Positions 24,801-60,852 of a stretch of DNA of 64,000 nt are shown here, in pieces (position 1 is the first letter of the stretch; every line of letters starts with the position of its first letter). The notes under the pieces are model-generated. The model saw nothing but the letters and a program-made list of their open reading frames with translations, was not told the DNA's origin and searched no databases. Both the position numbers and the translations under genes were made by a program. The DNA lies in the NCBI GenBank assembly GCA_964016885.1, contig OZ024743.1:365242001-365306000 (forward strand). Direction: 5' to 3'. Source of the DNA: Eledone cirrhosa. Lineage: Eukaryota.

Positions 24801-25062
24801 GCTGTTGATGTCGTCTGTTATGTTGCTGATGATGTCGTCTGTTATGTTGCTGTCGAAGTCGTCTGTTATGTTGCTGATGATGTCGTCTGTTATGTTGCTG
24901 TTGATGTCGTCTGTTATGTTGCTGTTGATGTCGTCTGTTATGTTGCTGTTGATGTCGTCTGTTATGTTGCTGTTGATGTCGTCTGTTATGTTGCTGTTGA
25001 TGTCGTCTGTTATGTTGCTGTTGATGTCGTCTGTTATGTTGCTGTTGATGACGTCTGTTGAT
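21850..25062. repeat. Minisatellite, 24-bp unit TGTTATGTTGCTGTTGATGTCGTC, ~130 copies
   Basis: Read directly; produces the 8-aa repeat ORFs. Confidence 0.97.
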
Positions 25063-26175
25063 GTAGTTGAGTGTAATTGTTGATGTTGCTACTGATGTGG
25101 GTATTCGTACTGTAGTTGCTGAAGTTATCATTGATGTTATTGCTGTTGTTGTTGCTGAAGATGTTGATGCTACTGATTCTGCCTTTGATGCTGTTGCTCA
25201 CAGTGTGGCAGTTGTTGCATATTTACACACATATTTAAATATAGATGTAATTACACTTACGTACGCACACACATATGTCATATACATGCTTACACACGCA
25301 CATAAGCTCATGCATGCACGCACACATCGATACATATACACATTAACAGCACACAAGTGCATTTTACGCTCAAGCGTAGTGTTAACCCTAACACAACCGA
25401 AATTAAACAAACAATAAATATAAACAGCTATTAGGAAGGAAATCTATGATTTCTCTAAAGCCCCACAATACCCTACGGACCGCATCCCTTGATAATGGAT
25501 GCTAAATCCCCAAATATTTGGAATTATAAAGTAACTTTCAGTCATTCTTTTGTTTATTTTTTTATTTTCCCTTCTTATCCGACATTTTGCCTTCTAGCTC
25601 ACCACTCGCAATCCCCTTCCGAATTGCTACCTTGGTAATTCTGACCCACTTGCATTGTACGACTTTCTTAACAAACCCACTTTTCATTTTCATAAGTAAC
25701 TAGATATTATCTTCAATATATTTACGTGTAATTAAATAATATATATACAATATAGATAATATATATATAATACATATATGTATACATAGGCAGAGGAAAG
25801 AGAGAAAGAAAATGAGATAGGGAGAAAGACAGAGAAAGAGATGCATATAACTAACTACTAAGAAGCAATGTTCTGTTTCCACTTAAAAACCCACCCACAC
25901 ATCTGTGTGGTAAAGAGGGTGTAAGAGGGTGTAAGAGGGTAGCTATTGGCGTGCTATTTCTAGTAGAAATAGTAGGTGGTAGTTAGGTAAAACTACTGAA
26001 GGTAGTAGGTAGTTGTGTGGGTGTGGGTGGGGTAATTTACTTTGCTAATACATAAGATACATTTACATATGTTGATATGCGGTTAGTTTTCTTCTGTATT
26101 CTTACTTTACTTCACTCTGAGTTTATGTTTGCACGTCTGCCGGATGGTGCGCATATAAGTGTTTATGGTTGTGTG

Positions 26176-26308: not shown

Positions 26309-27457
26309 AATTACAACAGTGACATAAATAGGTACTCAAGTTTCGTTGGGTTCTGGGCCCCAATTCATTCAGCCTATCATGAGAAAAATAGAAACATGGC
26401 CGCCTATCGTTGATTGTGCTTCCCCTATAGGAATATAACAAAAGAGTTTACGCAGGGGCAGGCAATTTAGAAAAAAAGTATAGGAAAAGGGGTTATTTAA
26501 AAAAAAATAGGGTAAGATCAAGGAAGGTAACTCTTGAGAGATCTTCATTTCCCTATTGGCCATAAATACCGAAAGATATTTAATCGCCATACAATAAAAA
26601 TAGGATACTATTGCACCAACAATGTAAAAGCCTATATCACCGGCAAACACAGAAGTCCTCCACCGTACGGATGCTCATGTAGAAGACCTGAAACATGTCC
26701 ACTAAACCAACAGTACAACACTCCGGCAGTGATATACCAAGCAGAGGTTCCGTCCACCAACCAGAACCACCAAACTGAACCCTGGACCTATGTAGGTATG
26801 TCCGAGAGCCGGTTTAAAAACCGGTTCCTGAATCACGAAACAAAATTCAGATATCCTGATAAAAAAACATACCACACAGCTCGCAAACCACGTATAAGAC
26901 CTTAAGAACAATGGCACTCCCTTTTCCATCAGATGGCGTATTTTGGAAAGATCTACCGCCTACGTAAATGGGTCGATATTTTGTCGAATTTGTAATTCCG
27001 AAAAATGGTGGATACTCTCACAATTAGCTTCGGATAAGCACTACCTCAACACACGACTCGATTGCTTTGGTGGTTGTCCCCATGTGAAGAAATATATTTT
27101 GGATAAATGACTTAGGCCTGACTAACAGGTCCAGAAGTATCTTTCTATTTACTGACTATATTGTTATTCAGTGAAATTGGATCTTTGGAGTCAACCAGAA
27201 GAAATTATTGTGCTTCTATTTTCATTCAAAATTCACTGTGGTCTCTCAAGAGTTACCTCCCTTGATCTTACCCTATTTTTTTAAAATAACCCCCTTTCCT
27301 ATACTTTTTTCTAAATTATCTGCCTCTGTGTAAACTCTTTTGTTATATTCCTATAGGGAAAGCACAATCAACCATAGGCGGCCATGTTTTTATTTTTCTC
27401 ATGACATGCCCAGAACTCAATGAAACTTGATTACTTGTTTAAATCACTGTTGTAATT
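26309..27457 (+). mobile_element. PLE 3' fragment (GIY-YIG endonuclease) flanked by inverted pLTR copies (26309-26541 and 27242-27457)
   Basis: ORF 26534-26905 reads CSCRRPETCPL..VIYQA..YVGMSESRFKNRFLNH. The ends are reverse-complementary. Confidence 0.88.
26328..26377 (-). ncRNA. Hammerhead motif with CUGAAUGA core variant
   Basis: ATAGG-CTGAATGA-aTTGGG gcccagaa CCCAAc-GAAAC ttga GTA-CCTAT. Confidence 0.6.
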
Positions 27458-28223: not shown

Positions 28224-28396
28224 GTGTGGGGGGGAAGAGAAGGTTGTTAGCTAGAAAGTGGTGTTGTAGTTACGGGTTCGAATGTTAAGTTATTTTATAA
28301 TAATGTTAAGTTATTTTATACTATAAAATAACTTAACATTCGAACCCGTAACTACAACACCACTTTCTAGCTAACAACCTTCTCTTCCCCCCACAC
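28224..28396. repeat. Fold-back inverted repeat (~75-bp arms) abutting a PLE 5' end
   Basis: 28224-28299 is the reverse complement of 28322-28396; a 19-bp duplication sits in the spacer. Confidence 0.95.
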
Positions 28397-30059
28397 AGGA
28401 GCAGCCATTGGTGTTAGCATTGCAGGTGACATAGCTAACTTATTCATGGTATGGTGGGACAGTAGACTTAAACTTAAACTTAAAGAACAATTAGAAGACC
28501 CCTTAACCATGATAATGTACTCCCGCTACGTTGATGATATAAACATCGTAGTTAAGACACCCCCACTAGAGAACAGTCAGGAACTAGAGAAAAACACAAT
28601 GGAAAGCATCCAGCAAATAGCTAACTCCATCCACCAGAGCATTAGAGTTACTATAGACTACCCAAGTAAACACCCCAACCATCGATTACCTGTACTAGAC
28701 ACAGAGCTCTGGTTAGATACCATTAATAACAAAAAACAAATCCTCCATTCCCATTATGCCAAACCCATGACTTCCAAACATCTGATCCACCGAAACTCGG
28801 CCGTTTCGGACCATACCAAAATCAACATACTGATTGCGGATTTGGTACGGGTGATGAGAAACGTGTCCCGCATGTGCAACCCCGAAGAACTAGAGAGACA
28901 CATACAACACTTCATCCACCGTATGCAGTTCTCTGGCTACAATCAGAGAGATAAAATCAGAGTGTATAGAGGAGCCAGAACCAAATGGGAAAAAATGGTA
29001 AATAATGACATAAATGGGACCTGCCCCTTGTATAGGAGCAAATTTTGGAATAGAATAGAAAGAACTAGGAACAAGGCTAATAGAATAAACTCATGGTGTG
29101 ATAGCAATAAATACCAGAGTGTAATGTTCATCGATACAACCCCTAGAGGTGAATTAGCTTACAAATTTAGAAGGGCCCTAGATAAACATAAACTCAATAT
29201 TAAGATAGTAGAAAGACCAGGTACCTCCCTAAAAACACTTATTAGCAAGACATACCCTTTTCAAAGACCCTCATGTATAGATAAGAAATGTATAACCTGT
29301 AAAATAAGCCCCCATATTAACTGTAAAACTAGAAATGTAGTGTATAGCATAAGATGTACTGAAGGACAATGTAGAGACAAAAAATATAGTGTACATAGGT
29401 GAGACAGCTCGTAGTGTAGGGGAACGGATAAATGAACACTGGCGAGACCTTCAAGATAGTAAAGAATCATCTGTACTCTACCAACATGCTAAAATAGAAC
29501 ACAAGGGTAAATTAGAGAACATAGAAATAAAAATAGAATCTACACACAGAAAAGACGCAATGTTTAGACAAATCACAGAGGCAATAAACATAAAAGAATT
29601 ACAATCAAAATTAAATAGAAAATATGAGTGGAACAGCAACATCACAACTTACAATTAAGGACAAAATGAAAACACACACATACATAGAACAAACAACCAA
29701 CCAACAACATGTAAATAAACAAATAAATAAATGAACATAAACACACACAGACACCCGGATGTGGCGCATGCGCAGACTGAGCACACAACACACACACAGA
29801 AACAAAATGGCGTAGGACAGAACAAAGAAAAGGAGAGGCACAAAAATAAAGAAAGGAATCCCCAGTCACTGAAGAGGTCACAGAGTGTGTGACGAAAGAA
29901 CTATGACAATATATAAACAACTATCTGGTTGTGGAACCAACCAACCAACCAGAAATTTATAAATTTATAAATTTATTATAAATTTATTATAATAAATTGA
30001 AGTGAAACAACTGGTGCGTGTGTTTCTTATTGGCAACATGACCCTCCCAAAGTATAACA

Positions 30060-36327: not shown

Positions 36328-39300
36328 GGCGACCTACGTAGTAAATCGTATTATCCTGAGCTCCGCAAAGGTTTGTTATTTTCAGTTGTTTAAAATTGCC
36401 ATTTATGGAAATGTTTTATTGTTAACTGTATATAAGTGTACATACATTGTTTTCTGAAAAGGACACTCAAAAAGATGGGGGCCTTAGAGCCCAAAATTTA
36501 AACTTTTATAATTATCAAACAAAAGTTTTTCTTTGAAAAAAATCATCACAAACTAACACCTCACACCGACACCACCATTGTAAATATTACTACGTTTGCC
36601 AACACTAAAAATATAAGCAGTAGCAATATTTTAAATTTGTCTCAGGCAGACATTCATTTCCCGCCATTACCAATGACTGCAGGTGTTGAAGCCGCCACCC
36701 CACCACCACAGCGACAACAGAAACAAAAGAAAAAAATAAATTATCTCGTGATATCGAAATGAATTCACCCAACTGACGCCACCACCACCACAACAGAAAC
36801 TAAAATTAACAATAACAAAAATAACGATAACAACAGCAACAATGAAATTAAGAAAACCACCCTGTCTTTTGCCAGAGTAGCAAAAAAGTGCGAAGTATTC
36901 CAGGTAACTCAGGAGGAATTAGAAGAAGCCAAAAGAATGGTAAAGAAAGATGGGTACAGGGTCAGCCTCACCCCCCCCCCCCACACACCTAATAAAATGG
37001 AGCATCGGCGCCTATGCACCGTGTCTTATCGGACGATTAACATAAAATCGCGCCGAGTGGAACGGGCATCCGAGTCCCAAATCCCAAAGGCTTTGGGACA
37101 TGTGTGGGCAAAAAAACCCCACATCAGACGTGGGCAGAAATATGGAACCGTGGACGTGTTCTTTGAAACACCACAGGAGACCAGAGAACACTCCATGGCC
37201 CCATTAAGAAGTGACGACTTCACACTCGTCCCAAGCTATTGTGGCCAGAGACTCGTGAAGATCAGAGTGGCCCACGTTCCACCGGCCATCGAAATTCCCT
37301 GGCTAATGGCTGCCGTCCTCGCCGGCATCGAAGCCAACACCAAGATAATCGAAATAGCGAAAGAAAACCAGGAGATCTGGGATGGAGCTCCTGATCCAAG
37401 CGGACCAAAAAAGCATTGAGGAGATCCCAGAGGTAATAGACCTCACTGACGGCAGCCACCTCACCGTAATCGTCGAGGGCAGAAGGCCTAGGTGTGTTGT
37501 TTGTGGTGAAGGAACCCACCTAAGGGCTTTCTGCCCTCAGGCTAAAAGTTTGAGACCACCTCTCTTACCCACCCCAGTGACTCAACCATCAACACCACAA
37601 GCAGCAGAAATGGCAGCAACAACTGTAGCCTCAACAAAAGAAGCAACTGTAACAACAACAACCCCAGCAACAGTAGCAAAACCAACACCACCACCACCCA
37701 ACGCGCCAGAACTAGCACCAACGCCTACACCATCCACCACGCCACAACCAAAACCAACGCCTGTGGAGGATTTTCCACTCCCCGACCTATCGCAACTGGA
37801 GACAGATTGTGACGACGAGGAGTGGGAAACGGTATCAGGAAAAAAGAAAAAAAAGAAAAAGAAACCAAAAAAGAAAAAATCCCTCCAAAAACAAAATACA
37901 GAGGGAAACAAATAAACTATCAAACAAAAAAGTTAGGACAGATATGCCACCATCCACACCAGCATCACCAACCCCATCACCACAAACACCAACACCATCA
38001 CCATCATTAACCCCAACACCACCATCACCAACAACACAGAAGTCACCAAAAAGCGAAACAGAAACAAACCCACAACAAACGCAAACAAAAAACAAAATAA
38101 CCAAAACGATACACACTACACAGCATTAAATTTGAACAACAACCAATTATTACACTACATCCAACACAACATCAGCATCACAGAAAAAGACTACACAACA
38201 ACCCAAAAGTTCACACCACCTCCACACATACAAATCATTCGCATCACACAGAAAACGTACACGACACTAAAACAAAAATTCCCCAAAGACATCGGAGACT
38301 TCCGACAAGCACTCTCCAGGAGGATTTATAAGGACATCCTTCCGGAGAAGGCCACAAGCAGTGAAAAGGATGGAGAAACCATCCTTCCTCTACGAGGAGT
38401 AAGGTAAGTGGTCTTTCCCATCTTTTCAACTCCATTTCAACATGACCTCACTCAAAACAGGCAGCATAAATGCGCGTGGCTTGGGGTCGTCATGGAAGCA
38501 GGGCCAACTGCTCACCGACCTCAGGTCACTAAACATCAGCGAGACCAGAATCTCCGAAGCACGGGCCTTCGCACCGATCTTCGGCGGCTACGATGTGTAC
38601 GCATCTCCCAGCCGTCCTGGATCGGGGGGAGGAGTTGCTGTGCTTTTTCGGAGAGGTTTGGATCTCGCCATACGGGCCATCTTCCTGGACCCAGAAGGTA
38701 AGTTGGTGGTGCTGGACGTGACCAGCGGAGACGGGCAAGCTTTCAGGCTAGTGGCCGTCTATGCCCCAGCAGGAGCAGGGCGGCTTGATGTCTTCCGGCG
38801 TCGGGAGACCTTTCTTGTAACGTCCCGCTCTTTAGTGTTAGTGGGCGACTGGAACGGGATCTTAGATGCACGCTGGGACTGTGTGGGATTAGCGGATAGG
38901 AGAGGAGGGTGCAAGAGCCTTACCAACCAGCTCAGGCGTTTAGAACTGTCTGACAGGTACCGATTGGATTTTCCGAATGTGCCAATGTGGACTTGGACAA
39001 ATCGCATACGGTCATCCAATCATATCTAGATAGAGTACTTTGTAGGGAAATAGATAGGTCTAGCATAGGCTGTCTACAATTCAAGATAGTCAGCTACACG
39101 GACTAAAATTTCGTGATCTGTGTGCTTGACTTAGATAGGCTTCATAGACGAGGACGCGGCTACTGGAAGCTAAACGCGTCCTTACCAGCGCGCAAGGCCT
39201 ACAGAGACCGGATTAGCGAATTAGTTAAGCGGGCGTTGAGAGGGGGCCATCGTCAACAACAAGTGGTGGTTTGCTCTGAAAAGAGCGATTAGAATAGAGT

Positions 39301-41418
39301 CCATTAGGTTTAGTAAGGCTTTAGCAATAGAGAAAAATAGAGCAGAGGGAGAACTAGTTAGAAAATTAGACGAGGCGCTTAGCAAAGGCATTGCGACCGA
39401 CGTGCTTGCGGCGAAATTGGCCCTTGACCAATTCTTCAATGCAAAGCACGAAGGCTGCGTTGTCAGAGCTAGGGTGCGTGCTCTCAGACACGAGGGGACG
39501 AAAGCCGTTCAATGGGCCCGAGTGGCGGAGGCGCGTCGTGGAAACAAAGCCACGATCCGGTCTTTGGTGGACCACGACGGGCGCATGCTACTCGATCCCG
39601 GGCAAATGTGTGAAGCTTTTCAGCGACACTTCGCACAGCTGTTCGGGGGCAGCGGCGGGCCGGATCGAGGGATGGACTTTAGTGTCTACTTCGACCGACT
39701 GCCGCGGCTCTCGGCCACTGAGGCGGAGTGTTGCGAAAAGCCGATAACAGCCGCTGAAGTACGGGAGGCAATGACTGGCTGCACAAGGGGTAAATCGCCT
39801 GGTTTGGATGGTCTGCCCTATGAACTTTACGTACAGATGCCAGACTTGTTCGGAGGCCTCTTAGCGGACGTCTACTGCAACTGGCAACAGAACGGGAGAA
39901 TTCCCAGCTCCGTGAGCCGAGGAGCTGTGGCGCTGCTGAGAAAGGATCCGAAGAAGGGGGATAACATAGATAATTTCAGGCCCATAACTCTGCTAAACAC
40001 AGTTCAAGATTTTGGCCAAGCTGCTAGCAAAGAGGTTGTCGCTTATCGTTGGTGGTCTGGTGGGAGAGGCGCAGACATGCGCCATTCCCGACAGATCCAT
40101 CCACGACAACCTCTACCTCATGCGATACATCGTAGAGAGGGTAGCTAGGGAACCTGGCACGGGTGGGTCCTTGATCAATTTAGATCAGTCGAAAGCTTTC
40201 GATAGGGTCGAACATCGTTACCTAGCGGCAGTCCTGAGGGCGGCTTGCTTTGGGCCCGTCTTCAGAGGCTGGATCGCTGCCATGCACAGCGATATCTGCT
40301 CTGTGGTGAGAGTGAACGGTCACCTTTCAGGCTACGACATCTCCACTTCTTCCTCGACGGTGATCAGGTGTGGTCGCCGTTTGCTAGACGCGTCTTTCCC
40401 CAGCTCGTCTCCTTGACGGAGCTGCAGTCCTGGGTCAAGCGAAGACCGAGAGGGAGCGCTTGGAGACTGGAATGTCTTCAGGCGCTCACAGCCCTCGACC
40501 AATCGGGCAATGTGATCGGTGGAAACTCCACCTTGACGTTCTATAGAGGATTAGTGGACGGGAAGAGTGACGACGTACTTGGAGAAACTCTAGGCGTCGA
40601 CGAAAATCAACTAGCCAATCTCTTCGGAAGAACTTTCAGGCCGGGGCCTATGGACAACTTCCAGAAATCCCTGGCCTAGCAGTGCTACCGAGGAGCTTTG
40701 CCAGTTTGGGATAAACTCTACAGGCATGAGGTGCCGTCAACCGGGCATGTCCGAGATGCGCGCAGAGCGACGAAACCGTCCTGCACGCACTCGTCCAGTG
40801 TCCGAGCATTGCTGACTTGTGGATTTATGTCGAACACCTGCTGTCACGTGTAGGACGGATCTAGCTATCAGCTGAATTCATCGTGAGGATTGCTCTGCCC
40901 CCTTCCTTTAGCCGGGAAGGGCAAGCAGTTTTTATCTGTCTGGTGGCCATGGCGAAAGAGATAGTATGGTGGACACGTTTGAAAGGGCTGAAGACGAGCA
41001 CTTACCTCTTCGGTGATGCCTTGATTAACTTTTTCAAATTTCATTTGAAAAGGAAAATCAGGGTAGAGAGGGAAGTGCTCTCTTCCCAGCATTTTGTTGA
41101 AAGATGGGTGAGAGAAGCAAGTATGGCCCGAGTGAATGGGCTTACTCTGAGTATGTGTCTGTAAATTAAAGGTGGAAAACTGGGAGAGGGCACTTGCCCT
41201 GGTGGTCAGGGTCACTGTGGCCTTTTAATGGGCTTTCTCCACAAATGTTGATCGGAAGTCTCACCCCTATTGTGGAATTTTTCATTTTTATTTTTTTGTT
41301 ACATCCTTTGTTTTTTTTTGTTTTTTACACGCAGAAATGCCAATTTGTACCGCCCCGTATTGTCCTGTACTGCCCTTAATGTCTACTTTATGTAAACTCT
41401 TGTGTTTAATAAAGAAAG

Positions 41419-41420
<2 letters not shown>
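36328..41420 (+). mobile_element. Near full-length Tx1/L1-type LINE (ORF1 with CCHC; ORF2 APE-RT-zinc knuckle) with ~0.7 kb RT deletion at ~40330
   Basis: ORF1 RPRCVVCGEGTHLRAFCP; ORF2 starts at 38442 (INARGL, VAVYAP, GDWN, SPGLDGLP, DQSKAFDRV). AATAAA at ~41408, then (TTA)n. YADD segment missing relative to the sibling. Confidence 0.92.
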
Positions 41421-41451
<31 letters not shown>

Positions 41452-41472
41452 CATTATTATTATTATTGTTAT

Positions 41473-42305
41473 TCCTTGAATCTCAGTCATTGATGTTGGT
41501 TAACTGGAAAGTCCGTTGGATTGAATATCAAGCCACTACCTGCAGCCTCAGATATTCAGGACGTATCGGAGGGTTCTTGCTGTTCCAAGCAAGCATGCCT
41601 TTTGAAGCGTTCCAAAAAGCGTGAAGGGGCCGATTTTCTTTAACCATCCCTGGAAACTTTTGGAGATAGTCCCCAGTGCGCCTGTGACAATCGGGATCAC
41701 TTTGACTTCATGGCAGTTCCAAATCCTTTTCACCTCCCACTTTAGGTCCTGGTATCGGTTAATTTTCTCCCTCTCCTTCTCTTGCACTCTCGTGTCGAAC
41801 GGGCAGGCCACATCCACAATCAGGCACGATCTTTTTTCTTTGTCCACAACCACCAGGTCAGGTCTATTGTGTTCCAGTTTTTTGTCCGTCTGTATCCTAA
41901 AATCCCACAGCACCTTCACCTGATTGTTCTCCATCACCGCCTCTGGCCTATGCTCATACCATTTCTCAGAATGTGGTAGATTGTTTACTTTGCACAGGTG
42001 CCAGTGGATCACCCTGCCCATCACATCGTGTCTCCAGCCCTTATAGTGGGTCTGGGCTAGGTGTTTACACTCGGACACAATGTGAGCCACAGTCTCCTCT
42101 CTCTCTCCACAGATCCTGCACAGTGGGCTGGCCTCCTCCTTGTAGATATGGTGCTTCAACCACTTCGTTTTGAGGGCCTGCTCTTGCGCAGCCATTAGCA
42201 TTCCTTCTGTAGCCTTTTTGAGGTCTCCTCTTCTCAACCAGTTCCATGTCTGTGGATCTCTAAATTCAGTTTTCTCAAAGAAGGTACTATGAAGGGGTTT
42301 TCCCT
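41473..42305 (-). mobile_element. R4/Dong-type RLE LINE 3' fragment
   Basis: ORF 41548-42237: CRIC..ETVAHIVSEC, RHD, RPDLVV..DVACP..EKINRY. (ATT)n on both sides. Confidence 0.88.
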
Positions 42306-42326
42306 TAAGGCTGCTCTTCCTCCTTG

Positions 42327-42380
<54 letters not shown>

Positions 42381-42395
42381 ATTATTAATATTATT

Positions 42396-45300
42396 GGTCT
42401 GTTCGGACGTCCTTTTGGTTCGCTCCCAGTAGGTCGCTTTATTTGCCTGTTAAAATTATTTGTTGTTAAATATTTCTTGTTGTGTAAGGGATATAAGCCC
42501 TTAGACTTTGCCCTGTGAAGGGGAAAGTATAATATTTGGACCTTTTGGCCCAAATATTTGAACTTTTTTTTACATGTTAAAAAATTTACGGAGAAAAAAA
42601 AACATGGCTGAGCCACGCCCCCAGCGATATGTCTGCTGTCGTGCGACAACGACGTAGAACTTGAGAGGAGCGCTACAGCGAAATTAACAGACATTGATAA
42701 CACAAACACCACCACAAATAATGTAAACAAAGACACCAATGATACCAAGGAGAACTCTAATTTTGAAAAAAATGACATTAACAGCGACAACGAAAATACA
42801 GATAACAAAAAAAAAATAATAACAAATGCAACAACAATATCAACACCACTAACATGAAAACAAATAGCGACAACACCAACAGCAACAATACCAACTGCAC
42901 CGAGAACAACGGCGGCACCAAAGACAACAATGATAACAGCGACAGTGATAACAACAACACCAACAAGAACAACGACAACGACAACAACACCCCCAACGAA
43001 ACAAGAAGAACACTTTCGCTGCGGCAGCAGCAAAAAAGAGGCCATGCTTCAACATGGACCTCTCAAACAAAGATGAAAAGTTGGCTCAGGCCTGGAAGCT
43101 CATCAAGCAAGAGCAAACCTGGGCCAACTTAACTGTCCCGGTAGAAGCTATTGAGGCAGTGGAGCGCAGAACGGTGCATTATAGATGCATCTCAGCACAA
43201 ACCAAAGGGCAGCTTTAATCCCACAAGAAGAGGTCGAAGTCGCGCTGAGGTGCATCAGAGAAGACACTGAATATATAGAGAGGGGCAGACAGTACGGCAC
43301 CATTTCGGTGTTGTTCAAGTCAGAAGCCCTCGCTATGAAACACGCTATGACTCCTTGCAAAACCAGCAAGGTCATAATGTACCCCTCCCACATGGGAAAA
43401 AGAACGGTCCGTCTCCGCATTCCCAGAATCCCACCAGGACTTGACATGTGGTGGCTTCTGGGATGTGTGATTGTGGAGGGGACGGATACCGTCCCTATAG
43501 AAGTGACCAGAACGGCCAGAGAGGACTGGTCCGGGGTTCACCTGGAGATCCTTCTCCAGATCAGGCCCGAGAATGTGAAGACAATCCCGGACCACATCCG
43601 CCTTCAGATTGGGACGGTCATTCACATTATGACCGAAGGCAAAAGGCCGCAGTGTTTTGTTTGTGGGGAAAAAACCCAATTGCGAGCCTTCTGCCCTCAA
43701 CTGCTGAAAGAGACAAGGGGTCGAAAGGCTCCACTGCTGCCGACGCCGGGGCGAGGACCACAACCAACACCAGCACCGGCAAAACCACCAACAACAACAC
43801 CAATAGAAAGACCACCACCAATATTGACCACCCAGGGGGGAACGAGGAAAGCGGTCAAATTCCCCCTCCCCGCAAAAATACACACACCAATAAAACCATA
43901 AACATACATACAGACACACTTACAGACCCCCTCATCTACCAATAGTGAAGATGAGGGAAAACCCAAATCCCCCAAAATACAAAAAAGGAAACACAAAAAG
44001 AAAAAGAAAACTCAACAAGGCACAAAATCACCCACAATAAAAAACGCAGACACCACCCACGCAAACATCTCTCCAATAACACCAACATCAACACCACCAT
44101 CACCATCACCAGAATCCCCCAAACGCAAACAACCTAAACAGACGCAAGAACAAATATACACACAAACATCCAAAACATACAAAACTTCGGGCTCGTCAGG
44201 AGGGCCAACAAGGAACTGATAGCCCTCGTAGCACGAATTGAAAATATACAAAAAGAGGGGGAAATTTTTAAATCGAGCACATTTCGCGTGCCGGAAGATT
44301 TGGTTCTGGTGCGAATGTCGATCGAATTATACAAAGAAATAAGAGACAGCTTTCCTCGGGACGTGGGAACCCCGAACGTAAAACCAACTTCAAGACTTTT
44401 AAAGGGGTTCCCAAAAGAAACCCTACCAACTATGGAGGTCGAACAACCCGACCTTCACAAGAGCCCGGAAGGTAAGTAAACCTTTCCTCTCTCTCTTTTT
44501 AACCTGCCAATATGGCCGTATTAAGAGTAGGATGTTTAAATGTTCGAGGTCTGGAATCGTCCTGGAAGCAGGGTCACCTGCTCAATGACCTCAGGTCTCT
44601 AGAAATGGATGTAATTGCCGTCAGCGAGACCAGGATTTCCGACACACGCGCACTAGCCCCCATTTTCGACGACTATCAGATCTTTGCATCTGTTAGCCGG
44701 CCAGGAATGGGAGGCGGGGTGGCAGTGCTGTTTAGGAAAGGCCTGGATCTCGAGGTAAGGTCGATCTTCCGGGACCCGGACGGGAAGTTGGTGGTCCTGA
44801 ACGTGAACAATAACGAAGGTGGTGCCTTTAGACTTGTGGCCGTCTATGCTCCTACTGGGGCAGGACGGCCGGACTTCTTTAGACGCCTGGAAGCCTTTCT
44901 GGGCACGTCTCGCCCTTTACTGTTAGCGGGGGACTGGAACGGCATCTTAGACGCACGCTGGGACTGTGTGGGAGTATCCGATAGGAGCGTGGGGTGCAAA
45001 AGCCTCAATAACCTGATCAGACAGTTCCAACTGTCTGACAGGTACCGACTAGATTTCCCTAATGCGCCAGTGTGGACCTGGGCTAACCGCATAGGGTCAT
45101 CTAGATCGTATATAGACAGGATATTAATTAGGAAAATAGACGGAAATAGTGTAAGCTGTCCACGTTTTGAAAGGGTCGCCTATTCAGATCACAAGTTTGA
45201 GATCTGTATGGTCGACCTAGATAAGACGCGTAGGTTAGGACCTGGTTACTGGAAGCTAAACATGTCATTCCGGCACGTAAGGCTTACAGGGACCAGGTCA

Positions 45301-47878
45301 ACAATTTAGTTAAGAAAAAGTTGACAGGGGGAGTCGTCAACAATAGATGGTGGGGGGCTCTCAAAAGAGAGATTAGAGTAATGTCGATAGAGTTTAGCAA
45401 AGAAGTAGCGTTAGAGAAAAATAGAAAGGAGGGGGAGTTGGTAGATAAGTTAGACGAGGCTATTGGTAATGGCATTGCAACTGACGTGCAAGAATGGCAT
45501 TAGACCATTTCTTCAATGCGAAACACGAAGGTTGCATTGTCAGAGTTAAGGCGCGTGCTCCGAGAAACGAGGGAACCAAAGCTGTTCGATGGGCCCGCGT
45601 GGCGGAGGCGCAGCGTGGTAATAAAACCACGATTCGGTCTTTGACGGACCGAGACGGTCACGAGCTGAGCGATTCCAAGCGGATGTGTGAGGCCTTTCGC
45701 CAACATTTTGCTCGGTTGTTCGGGGGAAGTGGCGGGTCAGAGATGGTGGCGGACTTCGGTCCCTACCTCGAAGGCTTGCCGCAACTCTCGACGGCTGACA
45801 CTGGGCGCTGCGAAAGGCCAATTACTTCAGCCGAGATTCAGGATGCACTTGTCGGCTGCATGAGGCGCAAGTCATCCGGTTTGGATGGTCTGCCCTACGA
45901 GATTTACGTAAATATGCCAGACTTGTTCTCCAATCTCCTCGAAGCCCTCTACTGCAACTGGCAGCAAAACGGGAGTATTCCCAGTTCTGTGAGCCGGGGC
46001 GTAGTGACGCTAATAAGGAAAGACGAGAACAAGAGGGACACATTAGACAATTTCAGGTCCATAACTCTGCTCAACACAGAGTTTAAGATTTTGGCCAGGG
46101 TGTTAGCGAAGAGGTTGGCGCTTGTCGTCGGGGATATGTTTGGGGAGGCGCAAACTTGCGCAATCCCAACCAGGTCCATACACGACAATCTCCACCTAAT
46201 GAGATACATCATAGAGAGGGTAGGGTGTAAACCTGGTTCGGTGGGGCTCTGATCAATTTAGATCAATCGAAAGCATTCGATAGGGTCGACCATCGGTACC
46301 TGGAGGCTATACTCAAGGCGGCTGGCTTCGGCCCCGTCTTCAGAAGCTGGATCGCTGCAATGCACAGCGGCACCTGCTCGATGGTCAAAATTAATGGCCA
46401 CCTCTCGGAACCGTTTCAGGTCTCCCGATCGGTCCGTCAAGGGTGCCCTCTCTCCTCCATTCTGTACGTATTGACTCTCGAACCTTTACTGCGGAAGCTG
46501 GAGCTGTTGCAGGGCATCCCGCTCGAACCGGGACGCGGAAAGGCTGTGTCGGCTTATGCGGACGACATCACCGTGATGGTGTCGGACACCTCAGAAATCG
46601 AGGTGGTCGGCAACTTATTGGAGGAATATGAAAGGTTGACGGGAGCAAAACTTAACCCGGAAAAGTCGGTGGGCTTGCAACTCGGCACCTGGAGAGGCAG
46701 GTCCATGCCGTCCAACAGCGTCGTTAGGCGCTGGACGGACGGACCGGTAAAGTTGCTAGGGGTTTGGTTCAGGCCAGACCTCCAGGTGGATAAGAATTGG
46801 GACGAGGTGACGGGCAGGGTAGCAAGCCTCACCCAGAAATGGGCTGGAATGAAGCTATCACTGAAAGGTCAACGGAGGTGGCGAACGCGTACATCGCGTC
46901 CGTCATCTACTACCGTATGACCGTCGTCCCTTGCCCCCGTTCGCACCTCGCCATCTTGGAGCGGCTCATCTTCAAATTCTTGTGGAGGGGTCAGGTTCCG
47001 TTGGTGAGGCGGTCCATCTGCTGCCAACACCCTCTACGTGGAGGGCTGGGCATGCCGTGGCTAATGATGCGCAGACACGCACTGAGGCTGCGGCATCTCC
47101 AGATATTCTGCCTAAACGGTGAACAGGTGTGGTCGCCGTTTGTCAGACGGGCCTTTCCGCAGCTCGTTTCTTTGATTGAGCTGCAGTCCTGGGTCAAGAA
47201 GAGACCGAGACTGGGTGACTGGCATCTGGAATGTTGCCAGGCACTCACTGCCCTCTACCAGGCGGGAAATGCGGTCAGTGGAACTTCCACCCTCGAGTTC
47301 TATAGAGGATTAGTGGTGGGAAAGTGCGACGACAGACACGGAGAGGCTCTGGGAGTCAACGAAGTCGAACTAACGAGTCTGTACCGGAGGACTTTCGAGC
47401 CGGGGACGATGGATAATTTCAAAAAATCCCTCGCTTGGCAGTGTTACCGGGGGGCACTGCCGGTTCGAGATAAATTCTCTGAAAGAGACAAGGGGTCGAA
47501 AGGCTCCACTGCTGCCGACGCCGGGGCGAGGACCACAACCAACACCAGCACCGGCAAAACCACCAACAACAACACCAATAGAAAGACCACCACCAATATT
47601 GACCACCCAGGGGGGAACGAGGAAAGCGGTCAAATTCCCCCTCCCCGCAAAAATACACACACCAATAAAACCATAAACATACATACAGACACACTTACAG
47701 ACCCCTCATCTACCAATAGTGAAGATGAGGGAAAACCCAAATCCCCCAAAATACAAAAAAGGAAACACAAAAAGAAAAAGAAAACTCAACAAGGCACAAA
47801 ATCACCCACAATAAAAAACGCAGACACCACCCACGCAAACATCTCTCCAATAACACCAACATCAACACCACCATCACC
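42396..47878 (+). mobile_element. Tx1/L1-type LINE (ORF1 ~42604-44479, ORF2 from 44512), frameshifted, 3' end replaced by an ORF1 duplicate
   Basis: RPQCFVCGEKTQLRAFCP; APE motifs LNVRGL/GDWN/IDR/SDH; RT motifs SVRQGCPLS and AYADDI. Confidence 0.93.
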
Positions 47879-48196
47879 TCCGTCTTGTCCCGTCTATTGA
47901 AGAACTTATCGAAAGGAATCGTTGTCCAGAATATAATTCCTCTTATCTGATGCATCTCTACCTATTCTTAGAAAATGTAGAAATCTCAAAAGCAGAAAAT
48001 GACTCATGTAAACACAGTCGATTGCTATAAATAATACCTTAGGAAATCGGGTAAAAAGTCCCGAGCTGCCATTACGAAGAATCGAACATCATTCCTCTCA
48101 AATTTCGGCTGAACGCTTTGTACCACTGAGCTTCGATATATTTATATATATATATGAGACCCTATATACATTTATACAAAGATGTGTTATGTAATT

Positions 48197-50199: not shown

Positions 50200-51410
50200 A
50201 TTCTTTTTTCTTCGAAGATTGACAGGAGATGGGCTGGAAGCCAAACTAAGAGAATACATAACCTATGTATATTATGAAGGAGGTTGATATTATTGGAAGT
50301 GTGAGTAGAGAGATAAGGAGAGGTAGAGCATAAGACACAGGCAGCAATAGGTGAAATGTCTGAAATTGATATTCTTTATTAACTAGCGTCCTATTGTTTT
50401 GTTATTGATGTCTGTATTATTTTTGTTGATATTATATTATTATTGCTACTGTTGGTACTGTAACTGTTGTTATTGTTACTATTGTTGATACTGTAGCTCT
50501 TGTTGTTACTGTTGTTGTTTTGTTAGTGCTATGGTTGAGCTTTTAAGGATTTTGTTTCTCAGAGTTTACAGCCCTTTGAAGTCACTGTTTATCTTCATCA
50601 AGGCAAACAAGATGTATAACCTACAACAGGAATGTTATTAATCAAACACTGCATACTACTGTTGCATTGGATGATTGCAAACATAAAGCCACGAAAATCA
50701 TAGGTTAGCAATAGATTATAGAAAGAAGAAAAAAAGAAAGCGAAAGAAAGAAGGAGAAGGATTTTTGTATAAACGTAAATGTGAGTTACCAAAAATATAT
50801 ATTTATTTCCACCTAATTCTCATTCTCATGTACGTTTATCTAAAGCAAGCCCCTTGAACCATGCATTATAGAAAGAAGACAGCCTTAAAATTTAGTTTGC
50901 GAGGGTAAATACAAGTATTTTAACCATTTTGGTACCAAACCAAACCAAACTACCTCTGGTTCAACGAAATCAAACCAACCATTTTAAAGGGTTTCTATTT
51001 AAATATAAATCTAACAAAATTAGATATAAAAACATATCTTTATGTTACAAACACCAAGTTAATAATGAAATGGTAAATTTTGTAAATCACTCCAAATTCT
51101 TCATTAATTAATTGAAATATGGTACATTTCATTTGGAATATTGTCACGGAAGAGTTAAGGGATTTATATATTACAATGAATACAGTAGCGTATATATAGA
51201 ATGGATTATTTGTAACAAAGCGTGGACGATTATCTTAATGGAGAGAACTCCTCTCTCCTTTGTCATCTTATATCGCAAGACAAAAAAATAACATTTCTGT
51301 TTTTACTCAATGACAGTCCTTGAAAACTTCTGTATGACCTTTTCTTAATCTGAACATTAATCAGAAAGTGCAGTTGTAGATTTTCATTAATGATGATGAT
51401 GATGATGATA

Positions 51411-51960
51411 ATTGTTCCTATTTTTGGCACAAGGCTAGCAATTTGAAGGGAAGGGGAGAGTCGATTAAAGTGACCTCGGTACGTTACTGGTATTTTATTT
51501 TATCGACCCCGTAAGGATGAAAGACAAAGCTAACTTCGGCGGGATTTGAACTTAGAACGTAAAAGGCTATAACTATGTGCTGCAAAGTATGTTGCCCGAG
51601 GCTTTGCCGACACTGCCAATACGCCACCTTTAGTAATAATAATGATTTCTACTTTAGGCACAAGGCCAGCAATTCGTGGGAAGGGAAAAACTGATTATAT
51701 CAATCCTAAGTACTTACCTGGCACTTTATCGATCTCGAAGGGTGAAAGAAAAATTTAACTCAGAACGTAAAACAAACAGAAGCAAATTCTGCAAAGCCTT
51801 GTATCCTACGCTTGAACGATTCTGTCAACCCACCGCCCTTAATATGATGTTTTCTAATTTAGGCACACTGTGATGTCAAGTTGAACTCGGCGGGATTTGA
51901 ACTCGGAATGTAAAGAGCAAACACCACAACGCATTTTTCAGGTGCTCTACTGGTTCGTTG
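51411..51960 (-). mobile_element. Cluster of three SINE copies or fragments
   Basis: GGCACAAGG(C/T)..GCAATT and GGCGGGATTTGAAC motifs at ~51425, ~51657 and ~51890. Confidence 0.7.
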
Positions 51961-52286
51961 GTTCCGAGGATGAGTGTTCCAGATTTTCGACAACCTAATT
52001 TCCCTCAAAATGCTCGGGTCGATTTAAAACAGTAATAAAAGACACTGTCACAAAATAGTAAGCAAAGGAATCAAACCTGGAATCTAATGATGCGAAGCGA
52101 AGTTGTAAACCATTCCGTGATGCTGCGTGCATGATTGTGTAAGTATTCACTATAGAGAAAGCAATCAGAAGAATTCGATTAGCGAAATTAAAAGAGTGAG
52201 GCAAGATTTCGTTTCGGTAAGAAATAAGACAAGACAAATGTAGTTTTACTGAGGAAAGTAATTAAAAACAGGTTTAGCTGATGTCA

Positions 52287-52332
52287 TTTTCGTGACTATT
52301 CCCCATAAGCTTATGGGGAATAGTCACGAAAA
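52287..52332. repeat. Perfect 46-bp spacer-less palindrome
   Basis: TTTTCGTGACTATTCCCCATAAG|CTTATGGGGAATAGTCACGAAAA. Confidence 0.95.
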
Positions 52333-53355
52333 ATATCGTTATCTAAAGTAAGAAACATTATAAAATGTAGGTTATATCAAAGAAACGTATGCCGAATACA
52401 TTTGTTGGACCGCCCCAGAGAGATTTGAACTCAGAAAGTAAAAGGGCATAACCAAAAGCGCAAGCCACTTTGTTCGTCGTTTTACCGAATATTTCATTCA
52501 TGCCTTCACAATATCAACAGAAAGAAAGACTAGGTCTGTTTTGCAAATTCATTCTCTCTTATATATGTGTTTGTGCGGATGTATATAGCTTGTTCTACTA
52601 GTTTATTTGAATACTCAGTTTTTTATTAATATTTTTTACTCTGTAAATTTCATTTTTTAAACCATAAATCAATACAGACAGAAATACAATGCAATAAATA
52701 TAGTGGATACTACAATTACTAAAAGTTTAAAAAACATGCTTAAATTGTATTATATGAATCAAAAGCATACTAAGTATATAGAATACTTTAATAAAAATCT
52801 CATAAAACAGAACACAAAATAGATTGTACCAAATGATCAAGTAACACTAATAATTAAAAAGTTCTTATCAGTAACGAATCACAAGCCTGTATGCCCTCCA
52901 ACAAGCTACTAATGACCAATGCGATTTACAAATTTGATTGCAAAACTGAAACATGTAAAATTCCTGACTCAAACTGATATATAAGTAGAATGCCCTCTAG
53001 TCACCATGCACTTACAACAATGAGCGAGTGCAGTGCACATCATTCAACAGAAAACAAAATGACACAAGAAAAACATCAATAAACACATTAATACCGCACA
53101 CAATTCCCTACAAAATAGACGTTTAATGATGAAAGCGATGCTAAAATGTACACACAGATGAAGTATACATATAAATCGAAAGCGACAGACAGAATTTTAT
53201 AACAGGAATATCGAGGAATGCTGTGTTGCATGAATTCGATGTTGTTTCTCGTTAATCAGTTAATTCAATTAGCAGACAACAAACATTACGCTGTATTTTT
53301 GAACGACTTCAGGTTATTCATGTCGAAAATGCAGGTTTGATGTCATCCCTGTTAC

Positions 53356-53408: not shown

Positions 53409-53554
<146 letters not shown>

Positions 53555-53692
53555 TAAATCTACTACTCAATGGTAGGGTCTAAACCGTATAAAGAACTCA
53601 ATGTAAACCGTATGTAGAAGATGTCGTGAAGCAAAGTTTAAAATACAAAAATGTAATCAACGATATAATTCAAATGGATACAGAGTCAAAAT

Positions 53693-54065
53693 AGAAATAT
53701 TAAAACAATGAAATTAAACACAAAACTGTTAATTCATAGTAAAACTCATTATTTTACGATCGTTTCTGGGGGGTAGTTCCCTGTATGTCCATTCAATTAT
53801 TGATCTATGTAAAACATATTACAAAATATCATAGTAAGAAAAAGATACATACGTCTTCACTACCCGCCGTCTTCAGAAATAATGAAGACGGCGGGTAGTG
53901 AAGACGTATGTATCTTTTTCTTACTATGATATTTTGTAATATGTTTTACATAGATCAATAATTGAATGGACATACAGGGAACTACCCCCCAGAAACGATC
54001 GTAAAATAATGAGTTTTACTATGAATTAACAGTTTTGTGTTTAATTTCATTGTTTTAATATTTCT
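53693..54065. repeat. Long inverted repeat (~183-bp arms, 7-bp spacer) made of pLTR-like sequence
   Basis: 53693-53875 is the reverse complement of 53883-54065. Confidence 0.95.
53747..53884 (-). ncRNA. Hammerhead motif with ~100-nt domain II
   Basis: CATTATTT-CTGAAGA-cGGCGGGTAGT...ACTACCCCCCa-GAAACGATCGTA-AAATAATG; 8-bp stem I, palindromic stem III. Confidence 0.7.
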
Positions 54066-54089
54066 CTCTCTCTCTATATATATATATAG

Positions 54090-54121
<32 letters not shown>

Positions 54122-55224: not shown

Positions 55225-55720
55225 AAATTGGGGCTTTTGATGCAAACAGGATCTGAAGATTTCTGTTTTTGAGTTTAGGTAAAATCCTGAATTTCTCACT
55301 TAGGAAGAGCGAGCATTTTTTGCTTCCATTTTTATATGGTGTTGAGTTTTCAAGCACTTTCCATGTGATGACATGGGGGTATTCTTCATTCTTTTAGCTG
55401 CCAGACGGTTTTTACCAGTGCTATAATGGAATGTTAAGATGGCTAAATGAGGAAAGGTGCAGTTAGAAACTTTGATACGGTTCTGTGTCCCATCCATAAA
55501 ATCAAAAATAACTGCAAAGAGCAAAACTGTAATGTTAAATCCATAATTTACGAAAGACATCAAATACACAAACGTTAAGAAGCCAGAAACCTGCGAAAAG
55601 CATGTAGACATGGTCCTAGACCGTTTTAAACAAAGGTTCTACCTGCAACTTTTCGCATTTAGACATCCCGATATGAAAACCACCACACCACTGGCAAAAT
55701 GGTCTGGCTGGTAAAAGAAA
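55225..55720 (-). mobile_element. Degenerate PLE GIY-YIG C-terminal fragment
   Basis: Manual translation VWQLKE..ITWKVLE..PYKNGSKKCSL.LSEK..LNSKTEIFRSCLH resembles the EN ends at ~6600-6780 and ~26900-27100. Confidence 0.6.
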
Positions 55721-56688: not shown

Positions 56689-56875
56689 AAACAAAGGAAT
56701 TGTGGTAAGGAACCAGATGGACCATAACGCACCAGAGTACTCAATACTTAGGGTAGTAGAGTGGGAAATAGGAAAAAGTATGACCCCGACGGCAGAGCTC
56801 AAGCCGTTTCTGTATCCAGAAATAGCCGTCGAAACGGCTTGAGCTCTGCTGTCGGGGTCATACTTTTTCCTATAT
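56689..56875. mobile_element. Small hairpin-forming element in (TA)n, copy 1
   Basis: ATAGGAAAAAGTATGACCCCGAC..GCCGTTTC and its reverse complement; sibling at 60658-60852. Confidence 0.8.
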
Positions 56876-57550: not shown

Positions 57551-57590
<40 letters not shown>

Positions 57591-57714
57591 ATGTATATAT
57601 AATGTATTTTGCAATACACTTTATGCTTAATTAAAAGCATTTTGAAGACCGTAAGCTATTGTTTTAAAGTAGTGACAAATTCACTCACTTTGATCTCAGC
57701 AAACAGGGGAGATA

Positions 57715-57758
57715 AGCCGACATGACATGTTTCGCTTTTGTTGAAGCTTATCAAGGCC
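57715..57758 (-). ncRNA. Hammerhead motif, U3-A8 covariant core (unit 1)
   Basis: GGCC-TTGATAA-GCTT caacaa AAGC-GAAACAT gtc ATGTC-GGCT. Confidence 0.7.
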
Positions 57759-58030
57759 AACTACCCCGCCTGTCTACTGAGATCAATGATGTTATATTCT
57801 TATAGAAATCTAGTAAATAATCAGGAGCTGATTATGCAGAGCGGTTGTTGGTCAGGCAGAAATTAAAAATTAGAATTGGAGCTCTGAAATAGTAATATAT
57901 ATATGGATGTATATATAATGTATTTTGCAATACACTTTATGCTTAATTAAAAGCATTTTGAAGACCGTAAGCTATTGTTTTAAAGTAGTGACAAATTCAC
58001 TCACTTTGATCTCAGCAAACAGGGGAGATA

Positions 58031-58074
58031 AGCCGACAACACATGTTTCGCTTTTGTTGAAGCTTATCAAGGCC
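58031..58074 (-). ncRNA. Hammerhead motif, U3-A8 core (unit 2)
   Basis: As unit 1, but stem III is ACA tgtgt TGT. Confidence 0.65.
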
Positions 58075-58542
58075 AACTACCCCGCCTGTCTACTGAGATC
58101 AATGATGTTATATTCTTATAGAAATCTAGTAAATAATCAGGAGCTGATTATGCAGAGCGGTTGTTGGTCAGGCAGAAATTAAAAATTAGAATTGGAGCTC
58201 TGAAATAGTAATATATATATGGATGTATATATAATGTATTTTGCAATACACTTTATGCTTAATTAAAAGCATTTTGAAGACCGTAAGCTATTGTTTTAAA
58301 GTAGTGACAAATAGCTTAGTGAACAATAGCTTACGGTCTTCAAAATTCTTTTAATTAAGCATAAAGTGTATTGCAAAATACATTATATATACATCCATAT
58401 ATATATTACTATTTCAGAGCTCCAATTCTAATTTTTAATTTCTGCCTGACCAACAACCGCTCTGCATAATCAGCTCCTGATTATTTACTAGATTTCTATA
58501 AGAATATAACACCATTGATCTCAGTAGACAGGCGGGGTAGTT

Positions 58543-58586
58543 GGCCTTGATAAGCTTCAACAAAAGCGAAACATGTCATGTCGGCT
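58543..58586 (+). ncRNA. Hammerhead motif, U3-A8 core (inverted unit)
   Basis: Identical to the unit 1 motif. Confidence 0.7.
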
Positions 58587-58746
58587 TATCTCCCCTGTTT
58601 GCTGAGATCAAAGTGAGTGAATTTGTCACTACTTTAAAACAATAGCTTACGGTCTTCAAAATGCTTTTAATTAAGCATAAAGTGTATTGCAAAATACATT
58701 ATATATACATCCATATATATATTACTATTTCAGAGCTCCAATTCTA

Positions 58747-58808
<62 letters not shown>

Positions 58809-59721: not shown

Positions 59722-59772
59722 GAGGTTTAGTTAAAGAAAGAGTCTTTTATGAAGAAACTTTATTGTTATTTT

Positions 59773-59846
<74 letters not shown>

Positions 59847-59895
59847 AATAACAATAAAGTTTCTTCATAAAAGACTCTTTCTTTAACTAAACCTC
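59722..59895. repeat. Palindrome centred on (TA)n
   Basis: GAGGTTTAGTTAAAGAAAGAG...(TA)n...CTCTTTCTTTAACTAAACCTC. Confidence 0.95.
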
Positions 59896-60659: not shown

Positions 60660-60852
60660 CAAAGGAATTGTGGTAAGGAACCAGATGGGCCATAACGCAC
60701 AAGAGTACTCAATACTTACGGTAGTAGAGTGGGAAATAGGGAAAAGTATGACCCGATGGCAGAGCTGAAGCCGTTTCGGCGGCTATTTCTGAGTCCAGAA
60801 ATGGCCGTCGAAACGGCTTGAGCTCTGACGTCGGGGTCATACTTTTTCCTAT
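60658..60852. mobile_element. Small hairpin-forming element in (TA)n, copy 2
   Basis: Homologous to 56689-56875, with a longer hairpin (..CGGCTATTTCTG agtc CAGAAATGGCCG..). Confidence 0.8.

What the first reader, a model, noticed from the sequence alone, without database searches (positions are those of the whole stretch)
53693..54065. Hammerhead with ~100-nt domain II, and a palindrome whose axis falls in the catalytic core
Seen: minus-strand HHR with an 8-bp stem I, CUGAAGA, domain II of ~103 nt (GGCGGGTAGT/ACTACCCCCC plus GTATGT/ACATAC), palindromic stem III ACGATCGT and a GUA site. The inverted arm restarts at TGAAGA (53883), so the mirror copy lacks C3 and the 5' strand of stem I. Established: PLE HHRs are typically minimal with short stem II. 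Inference: a large-insertion HHR class. A transcript across the locus would form ~180 bp of dsRNA, a possible ADAR or Dicer substrate.
Basis: partly seen in the sequence, partly recalled or inferred. Interest (0 to 1): 0.72.

Follow-up and report, generated by a model that had tools for sequence, protein, structure and literature searches.

The report
Long-armed hammerhead in Penelope-like palindrome
This DNA palindrome is a dead, back-to-back stub of an abundant Penelope-like jumping gene whose predicted self-cutting RNA motif has a conserved arm about four times longer than in published relatives; the fold-back point likely marks where the element's RNA starts, and the long arm likely hides a splice signal.

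Summary
Observation confirmed: 183-bp perfect inverted repeat and a complete type I hammerhead with a 103-nt domain II on the minus strand. It is a head-to-head pair of 5'-truncated ends of a Hydra-clade Penelope-like element (PLE) in (TA)n; 551 exact copies of a 32-mer. Sister families (74% protein identity) keep a 97-126-nt domain II, with double-sided changes at 6 of 9 basal pairs; published Hydra hammerheads have 12-26 nt. The axis is not peculiar to this locus: 5' ends pile up at this point in two families (17 of 93 and 24 of 92), with a sharp edge at the A of TCATT (window 53883), likely the RNA start. A GTATGT donor at +32 to +34 is paired inside domain II, and a conserved AG lies 34-35 nt before the ORF's ATG, predicting a 350-415-nt 5'-UTR intron through the ribozyme. 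Splicing, transcription and cleavage are untested; no spliced copy, no RNA run and no A-to-G hyper-edited copy was found. The scan found long-armed Hydra hammerheads and start-site axes before on other DNA. New variant of a known kind.

The parts
53550..53885 (-). Long arm: 5'-truncated 3' end (pseudo-LTR) of a Hydra-clade PLE, from the predicted RNA start to the distal 3' end
   Evidence: Matches the 3' end of ORF-bearing copies L062, L065, L072; ends
53883..54065 (+). Short arm: inverted 5'-truncated copy, starting at U4 of the core and ending at the proximal 3' end
   Evidence: 0 differences to the long arm in 183 nt, nearest other copy 1, median 7
53550..53692 (-). 143-nt tail present on one arm only (distance between two recurrent 3' ends, likely two RT start sites)
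   Evidence: RT start sites inferred by analogy with PMC11167929
53877..53885 (-). Stem I 5' strand; holds TCA(+1)TT, the predicted start at 53883; 53883-53885 shared by both arms
53870..53876 (-). Catalytic core CUGAAGA
53767..53869 (-). Domain II, 103 nt, four stacked helices
53851..53856 (-). AGACGT at +28 to +33 from 53883, DPE-like (this family only)
   Evidence: Penelope DPE RGACGTGY in PMC2377424; not present at this place in sister families
53847..53852 (-). GTATGT, predicted 5' splice donor at +32
   Evidence: splicing untested
53783..53788 (-). ACATAC, partner strand predicted to pair with the donor
53755..53766 (-). GAA, palindromic stem III ACGAUCGU and H17 (GUA site)
53741..53754 (-). 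Stem I 3' strand (9 nt pair in the window, 14 in intact copies)
53427..53549 (.). (TA)n target, left flank
54066..54090 (.). (CT)n(AT)n right flank
   Evidence: (CT)n follows the short end in 13 of 101 copies

Best explanation
The locus is a head-to-head pair of 5'-truncated ends of a Hydra-clade Penelope-like retrotransposon inserted in (TA)n, carrying a type I hammerhead with a conserved ~100-nt domain II; its axis likely marks the start of the element's RNA, and the long domain likely masks the donor of a 5'-UTR intron. Shown: family, clade motifs, one-long-one-short ends, the 5'-end hotspot, covariation of the basal helix. Inferred: both ends of a cut (TA)n prime cDNA on unspliced, uncleaved RNA from two internal start sites; one cDNA ran off the RNA 5' end at 53883, the other stopped 8 nt short, and they joined over 1-3 nt of overlap. 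Inferred: RNA starts at TCA(+1)TT inside stem I; spliced RNA loses the 3' half of the hammerhead, both RT start sites and 6-10 upstream ATGs and is translated, while unspliced RNA keeps them and is the template. Predicted: the hammerhead misfolds as a monomer and needs a partner through its palindromic stem III. This copy has no ORF or acceptor and is likely inert.
For: Intact copies continue upstream into an ORF with RWR, DKT, YRDD, CxCx5C and C-terminal GIY-YIG, the Hydra features of PMC8557442 section 11. 39 of 46 pairs long+short. Non-SINE 5' ends within -9..+2 of C3: 17 of 93 (8 exactly at -7) against 42 over the next 117 nt, p = 2e-5; sister family 24 of 92 (7 at -7) against 15, p = 1e-15; only 4 and 5 ends in the 51 nt upstream. 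Basal helix: 6 of 9 pairs change on both sides, 98% of cells paired; slid controls 26-55%. GTATGT at +29 to +35 in 114 of 132 long hammerheads (108 at +32 to +34), in all three groups, while its partner varies among ACATAC, ACATGC, GCATAC, GCATGC, all pairing. In 7 element 5' ends AG lies 34-35 nt before the ATG while its distance from the pLTR end varies 50-122 nt. Precedent: start in the pLTR and 5'-UTR intron in Penelope (PMC2377424) and a 398-bp intron spanning the pLTR boundary in Chlamys-3_cRei. Active monomer fold ~2e-6 from the predicted start, ~1e-2 with 14-bp stem I; active dimer 5-11 kcal/mol below two monomers.
Against: No RNA evidence. Exact spliced-junction patterns gave 0 matches, for a 48-nt intron in this family and for the long intron in the sister families; the long junction of this family was not searched. 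The DPE-like word is absent at +28 in sister families although they share the hotspot. An extra G before +1, expected from a cap, is weak: 9 of 28 against 12 of 71, p = 0.08. The acceptor has a poor pyrimidine tract. Covariation rests on about three lineages, so cells are not independent events; alignment A1 is shifted by 4 nt around the donor between families. Two arms of one pair were counted as two ends. The active dimer is 1.4-5 kcal/mol above the unconstrained dimer fold. No tree was built.
Confidence: 0.68

Rival explanations
1. Same element and ribozyme, but the 5'-end hotspot is the downstream product of 3'-end processing: AATAAA 16-21 nt upstream of C3 directs a cut near TCA|TT and the uncapped downstream RNA is copied.
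For: CAATAAA is kept at this place in all three groups; a CA dinucleotide lies at the hotspot; cap-G signal weak.
Against: The cut would lie only ~9 nt after the hexamer, shorter than the usual 10-30 (recalled); such fragments are normally degraded (recalled); the peak is at the A, not the following T.
Confidence: 0.12
2. The long domain II is a neutral hairpin expansion, kept paired only so that the ribozyme folds; GTATGT and the AG before the ORF are not used for splicing.
For: Domain II in other hammerhead-like hits of my loci spans 9-63 nt in 52 of 55 rows, so length drifts; no spliced copy.
Against: Donor strand constant while its partner varies by G-U wobble; fixed AG-to-ATG spacing; 6-10 upstream ATGs in the unspliced leader.
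Confidence: 0.3
3. The axis is set by DNA: AT-rich microhomology, cDNA fold-back at stem I, or a nuclease hotspot at C|ATTATT (the SINE target).
For: 1-3 nt overlap at the window's junction; a SINE inserts at the same base; a few junctions use stem I homology (L249, L280, L282).
Against: The sister family's TATATATA in domain II is a better match to (TA)n yet draws few ends; sharp upstream edge with a downstream trail; SINE cases keep the upstream element and a duplication and were counted apart.
Confidence: 0.12
4. One reading: the palindrome matters as a dsRNA substrate for ADAR or Dicer, and the ribozyme fixes the axis.
For: 183-bp perfect duplex if transcribed.
Against: No hyper-edited copy in 230; 5' ends at the cut site only 3 and 2 against 1.1 and 0.4 expected (p = 0.09, 0.06); transcription through the locus not shown.
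Confidence: 0.08

Closest known systems
Hydra-clade EN+ Penelope-like elements and their type I hammerheads (Craig et al. 2021, PMC8557442; read: passages, section 11, supplement part 2 with File S2, passages of Files S4, S7 and Fig. S7 text)
   Same: RWK-like, DKT and CxCx5C motifs, no CCHH, (TA)n target, hammerhead in the 3' pLTR with palindromic stem III and an extra base on each side of stem II, inverted 5'-truncated copy and one-sided tail.
   Different: Domain II 97-126 nt against 12-26 nt in the 26 Hydra rows (longest in the whole table about 54 nt, PLE-X1_sMoe); tail 143 nt against 30-40; element about 4 kb against mostly under 3 kb.
Penelope of Drosophila virilis (Schostak et al. 2008, PMC2377424, passages; Cervera and De la Pena 2014, PMC4209133, parts 1-2 of 4)
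   Same: Start site in the pLTR, TATA-less internal promoter with RGACGTGY, 5'-UTR intron touching the hammerhead.
   Different: There the 75-bp intron ends at the 5' end of helix I; here the predicted intron starts inside domain II and would remove the 3' half of the ribozyme. Predicted here, measured there.
Chlamys-3_cRei (PMC8557442 section 10, passage)
   Same: Start in the pLTR and a 398-bp 5'-UTR intron across the pLTR boundary.
   Different: N-terminal EN clade without a canonical hammerhead.
PAc/Poseidon of Anolis in vitro (Frangieh et al. 2024, PMC11167929, parts 1-2 of 4)
   Same: Both strands cut and extended, two internal RT start sites bounding the tail, uncleaved RNA as main template.
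   Different: Minimal, protein-assisted hammerhead overlapping the start codon; short tail.
Metazoan non-LTR retrozymes (bioRxiv 10.64898/2026.07.22.740005, part 1 of 5; PMC7229834, listing only)
   Same: Type I hammerhead, PLE link.
   Different: Tandem non-coding monomers; this is a fragment of an ORF-bearing element.

Membership tests
Hydra-clade PLE | Single ORF, RT then C-terminal GIY-YIG | tested here: met
   813-aa ORF in sister copy L213, broken ORFs in L065/L072; Pfam GIY-YIG E = 0.003, below its cut-off; no Pfam RT hit
Hydra-clade PLE | RWK and DKT motifs | tested here: met
   RRVRWRAY (RWR variant) and HSDKTGN; compared by eye with Hydra rows
Hydra-clade PLE | CxCX5C linker; CCHH absent; CxxC and CxH around the conserved E and N | tested here: met
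   CNCRIKDNCPL; one Cys in the GIY-YIG core; ECGLC..E and LNK..CNH
Hydra-clade PLE | Insertion in (TA)n; hammerhead in pLTR | tested here: met
Hydra-clade PLE | Generally under 3 kb | tested here: not met
   L065 and L072 align over about 3.9 kb; extra length is low-complexity ORF inserts and UTR; the paper states a tendency, not a rule
Hydra-clade PLE | Groups with Hydra in an RT tree | not tested
   No tree built
Type I hammerhead ribozyme | CUGANGA, GAAA, NUH, A15.1-U16.1 | tested here: met
   core columns invariant in A1, but rows were picked by a scanner that requires the core
Type I hammerhead ribozyme | Three helices supported by covariation | tested here: met
   Stem II 6 of 9 pairs double-changed; stem I one real double change (U-A, U-G, C-G); stem III invariant, so uninformative
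Type I hammerhead ribozyme | Stem I-stem II tertiary contact | not tested
   No contact modelled
Type I hammerhead ribozyme | Self-cleavage at the predicted site | not testable with these tools
   Genomic proxy inconclusive: 3 and 2 ends at the site
Penelope-type pLTR promoter with 5'-UTR intron | Start site inside the pLTR | tested here: inconclusive
   5'-end hotspot at TCA|TT in two families; cap-G p = 0.08; no RNA
Penelope-type pLTR promoter with 5'-UTR intron | DPE at +28 to +33 | tested here: inconclusive
   Present in the window's family, absent in sister families
Penelope-type pLTR promoter with 5'-UTR intron | Spliced 5'-UTR intron | tested here: inconclusive
   Donor and acceptor conserved; 0 spliced genomic copies, which intron retention in PLEs also predicts
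Non-LTR retrozyme | Tandem non-coding monomers each with a hammerhead | tested here: not met
   Copies are truncations of an ORF-bearing element
Nematis/Neptune or Naiad PLE | CX2-5CxxC linker and CCHH (N-terminal EN for Naiad) | tested here: not met

The most novel reading that the evidence does not exclude
Domain II is a switch that links splicing, ribozyme and retrotransposition: by pairing the 5' splice donor it holds part of the RNA unspliced, so that one transcript is either spliced into an mRNA without hammerhead and RT start sites, or kept whole as the template. This would give a structural cause for the unexplained intron retention of Penelope-like elements and a role for their hammerheads beyond cutting.
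Probability: 0.25. Interest if true: 0.78.

Novelty: new variant of a known kind. Interest (0 to 1): 0.46.

Why it matters
PLE hammerhead function and PLE intron retention are both called unexplained in PMC8557442. This family puts a predicted start site, a predicted splice donor and the catalytic core within 45 nt, with natural compensatory variants, so single-construct tests of cleavage and splicing are possible. At least 6,563 genomic sites carry this core-plus-stem-I word, and Rfam misses the window's copy, so long-armed hammerheads are likely undercounted. The palindrome itself is ordinary.

Tried and rejected
Nematis clade: my first reading, dropped for Hydra on the motifs. Naiad with a hidden hammerhead: EN is C-terminal. 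A SINE aimed at the hammerhead: a ~200-nt SINE sits at the same base in 7 of 100 and 8 of 100 sampled copies and 430 times genome-wide (28 of 29 distinct loci shown continue as long hammerheads, one has the core only), but its general target is C|ATTAT (16 of 31 junctions); occupancy 430/(430+6,563) = 6% against a rough background of 5-8%, so no enrichment is needed. A 42-54-nt mini-intron inside domain II (GTATGT to TTACATAG): 0 spliced copies, short, not favoured. Cleaved RNA as template: weak, and one of the five ends is a stem-I homology joint, another adjoins a SINE. Both arms from one RNA molecule: arms are closer than the median other copy but rarely closer than the nearest one, undecided. 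Editing: none. RNA runs: no RNA holder listed; contigs of three runs of unknown kind, one sample, showed no splice joint; neither is evidence. RNAalifold's consensus pairs the core (UUUCU/AGAAA) instead of stems I and III. Lunse et al. 2017 is not held; known to me only through PMC6765202 and recall, and it or the unread supplement of PMC4209133 may list long-stem variants. Searches for a printed long-stem-II PLE hammerhead (listings, plus passages of PMC3088659 and PMC6765202) showed none.

Full report
Observation. The inverted repeat is exact: arms 53693-53875 and 53883-54065, 183 nt, 7 nt apart. The minus strand holds a full type I hammerhead: stem I, CUGAAGA at 53876-53870, a 103-nt domain II, GAA, the palindrome ACGAUCGU, A17 at 53755. 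Stem I is 9 bp here. Rfam gives no hit at this place even at E = 1.

What it belongs to. The window lies in a 3.0-Gb genome, likely an octopus according to earlier notes of the scan (not tested). A 32-mer over the cut site has 551 exact matches and the reversed control none. Intact copies continue upstream through a 3' UTR, with a 14-bp stem I, into an ORF ending in a GIY-YIG domain. Near-full copies show RWR, DKT, YRDD, a CxCx5C linker, no CCHH, and CxxC and CxH around the conserved E and N. These are the Hydra-clade features of PMC8557442 section 11 and match its Hydra proteins motif by motif by eye. I built no tree. L072 shows the textbook layout: inverted truncated copy, partial tandem pLTR, ORF, pLTR.

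The palindrome is a standard product. Of 46 head-to-head pairs in my loci, 39 have one long and one short 3' end; in the window the difference is 143 nt. PMC8557442 describes the inverted copy and one-sided tail, and PMC11167929 shows a PLE protein cutting and extending both strands from two internal RNA sites that bound the tail. I infer the same here.

Why the axis falls at the core. I took the first 100 of 191 exact matches of a 40-mer downstream of the cut site (23 of 123 rows dropped as outside that list, the window included, or duplicates) and the first 100 of 4,266 for a sister family. Setting aside 7 and 8 SINE insertions, 17 of 93 and 24 of 92 5' ends fall within -9..+2 of C3, 8 and 7 exactly at -7, against 42 and 15 over the next 117 nt and 4 and 5 over the 51 nt upstream (p = 2e-5 and 1e-15). 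Arms of one pair count twice, and far-upstream ends partly reflect the ruler copy or the extension limit. Position -7 is the A of TCATT and is window 53883, where the two arms meet. A sharp upstream edge with a downstream trail fits a polymerase running off an RNA end. Counting from that A, AGACGT lies at +28 to +33, like the RGACGTGY element of the Penelope promoter. Against: sister families share the peak without that word, and an extra G before +1 is only weakly enriched (9 of 28 against 12 of 71, p = 0.08). Earlier notes of this scan read other palindromes the same way; I took the start-site reading from them and tested it here on two other families.

The long domain II is real. Families with 74% RT identity (278 of 378) keep 97-126 nt (132 hits). 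In a 20-row alignment chosen from 42 representatives of 131 hits, 96.8% of cells pair, 6 of 9 basal pairs change on both sides (G-C to A-U or U-A, with G-U intermediates), and slid controls pair at 26-55%. The changes come from about three lineages, so this is a handful of events. The 26 Hydra rows in File S2 have 12-26 nt and mostly the same extra base on each side of stem II. Other hammerhead-like hits in my loci have 9-63 nt in 52 of 55 rows. The scan has seen long-armed Hydra hammerheads in other genomes.

What the arm may do. GTATGT stands at +29 to +35 in 114 of 132 hits, 108 of them at +32 to +34, after AG in most sister copies; its partner strand varies among four words that all still pair. 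At 7 element 5' ends an AG precedes TTGAGCTC-like sequence 34-35 nt before the ATG, while its distance from the pLTR end varies from 50 to 122 nt; the implied intron is 351, 364 and 415 nt in the three complete cases and the unspliced leaders hold 8, 6 and 10 ATGs (one further row was an unrelated match). Chlamys-3_cRei has a measured 398-bp intron in the like position. Splicing would delete the 3' half of the ribozyme and both RT start sites. No spliced genomic copy was found; PLEs are known to keep introns in their copies, so this neither supports nor refutes. The step is a prediction.

Activity. From the predicted start stem I has 7 A-U pairs and UUUCUG pairs with CAGAAA, so the active monomer has weight ~2e-6; with the 14-bp read-through stem ~1e-2. 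Double-hammerhead dimers are 5-11 kcal/mol below two monomers but 1.4-5 above the free dimer fold. This agrees with weak, dimer-dependent PLE hammerheads (PMC4209133). 5' ends at the cut site are 3 and 2, against 1.1 and 0.4 expected, and whole hammerheads are copied, so uncleaved RNA is the main template.

dsRNA. A read-through transcript would form a 183-bp duplex (-306 kcal/mol) that hides the ribozyme. No transcript is known (one search lists no RNA holder), and none of 230 copies is hyper-edited.

Verdict. Known element clade, known insertion geometry, real and unusually long domain II, with a testable start-site and splice-donor model. New variant of a known kind; interest 0.46.

Noticed in passing
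L014, L033, L058, L140, L208, L220, L321-L350 and others; copies of the SINE also at window 51405-52443: A ~200-nt SINE (134,745 exact 3'-end matches) inserts at C|ATTAT with 3-21-bp duplications; it lands in stem I of these hammerheads 430 times, sometimes twice in a row, leaving a 7-bp stem I. Explained by its general target preference.
   Followed up: yes
window 54066-54075 and 13 of 101 copies: The short 3' end TTTCT is often followed by a (CT)n run before (TA)n, as if the RT slipped and repeated a dinucleotide at initiation.
   Followed up: no
window 57579-58753: 316-bp tandem unit, 2.3 copies plus an inverted copy, with sub-threshold Rfam Hammerhead_HH9 hits at 57698-57768, 58014-58084 and 58533-58603; core reads TTGATAA. 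Probably the retrozyme family of earlier notes e1-8668197 and e1-8664463.
   Followed up: no
window 4690-6782: Broken ORF of another Hydra-like PLE, 38-57% identical to the L213 protein; further pieces at 26546-26851 and 55280-55369.
   Followed up: partly
window 56768-56873, 60736-60852, 28224-28397, 59722-59895, 52287-52332: Five more short palindromes; the first two are related to each other.
   Followed up: no
window 10934-21816 and 21850-25064: Long satellites of 28 nt (380 copies) and 24 nt (134 copies) with strong strand skew.
   Followed up: no
L383, L388, L399, L403, L406; L070, L248, L262; L279: Hammerheads with 26-, 30-32- and 36-nt domain II and palindromic stem III occur in other repeat families of this genome (the 32-nt type downstream of a more distant PLE endonuclease), a size series toward the 100-nt form.
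   Followed up: partly
intact copies, 16-21 nt upstream of C3 (e.g. L062, L214, L378): CAATAAA is kept just upstream of stem I in all three groups; if used, poly(A) RNAs would end before the hammerhead and the RT start sites.
   Followed up: no
window 38467-47897: Several fragments of non-LTR retrotransposon ORFs.
   Followed up: no
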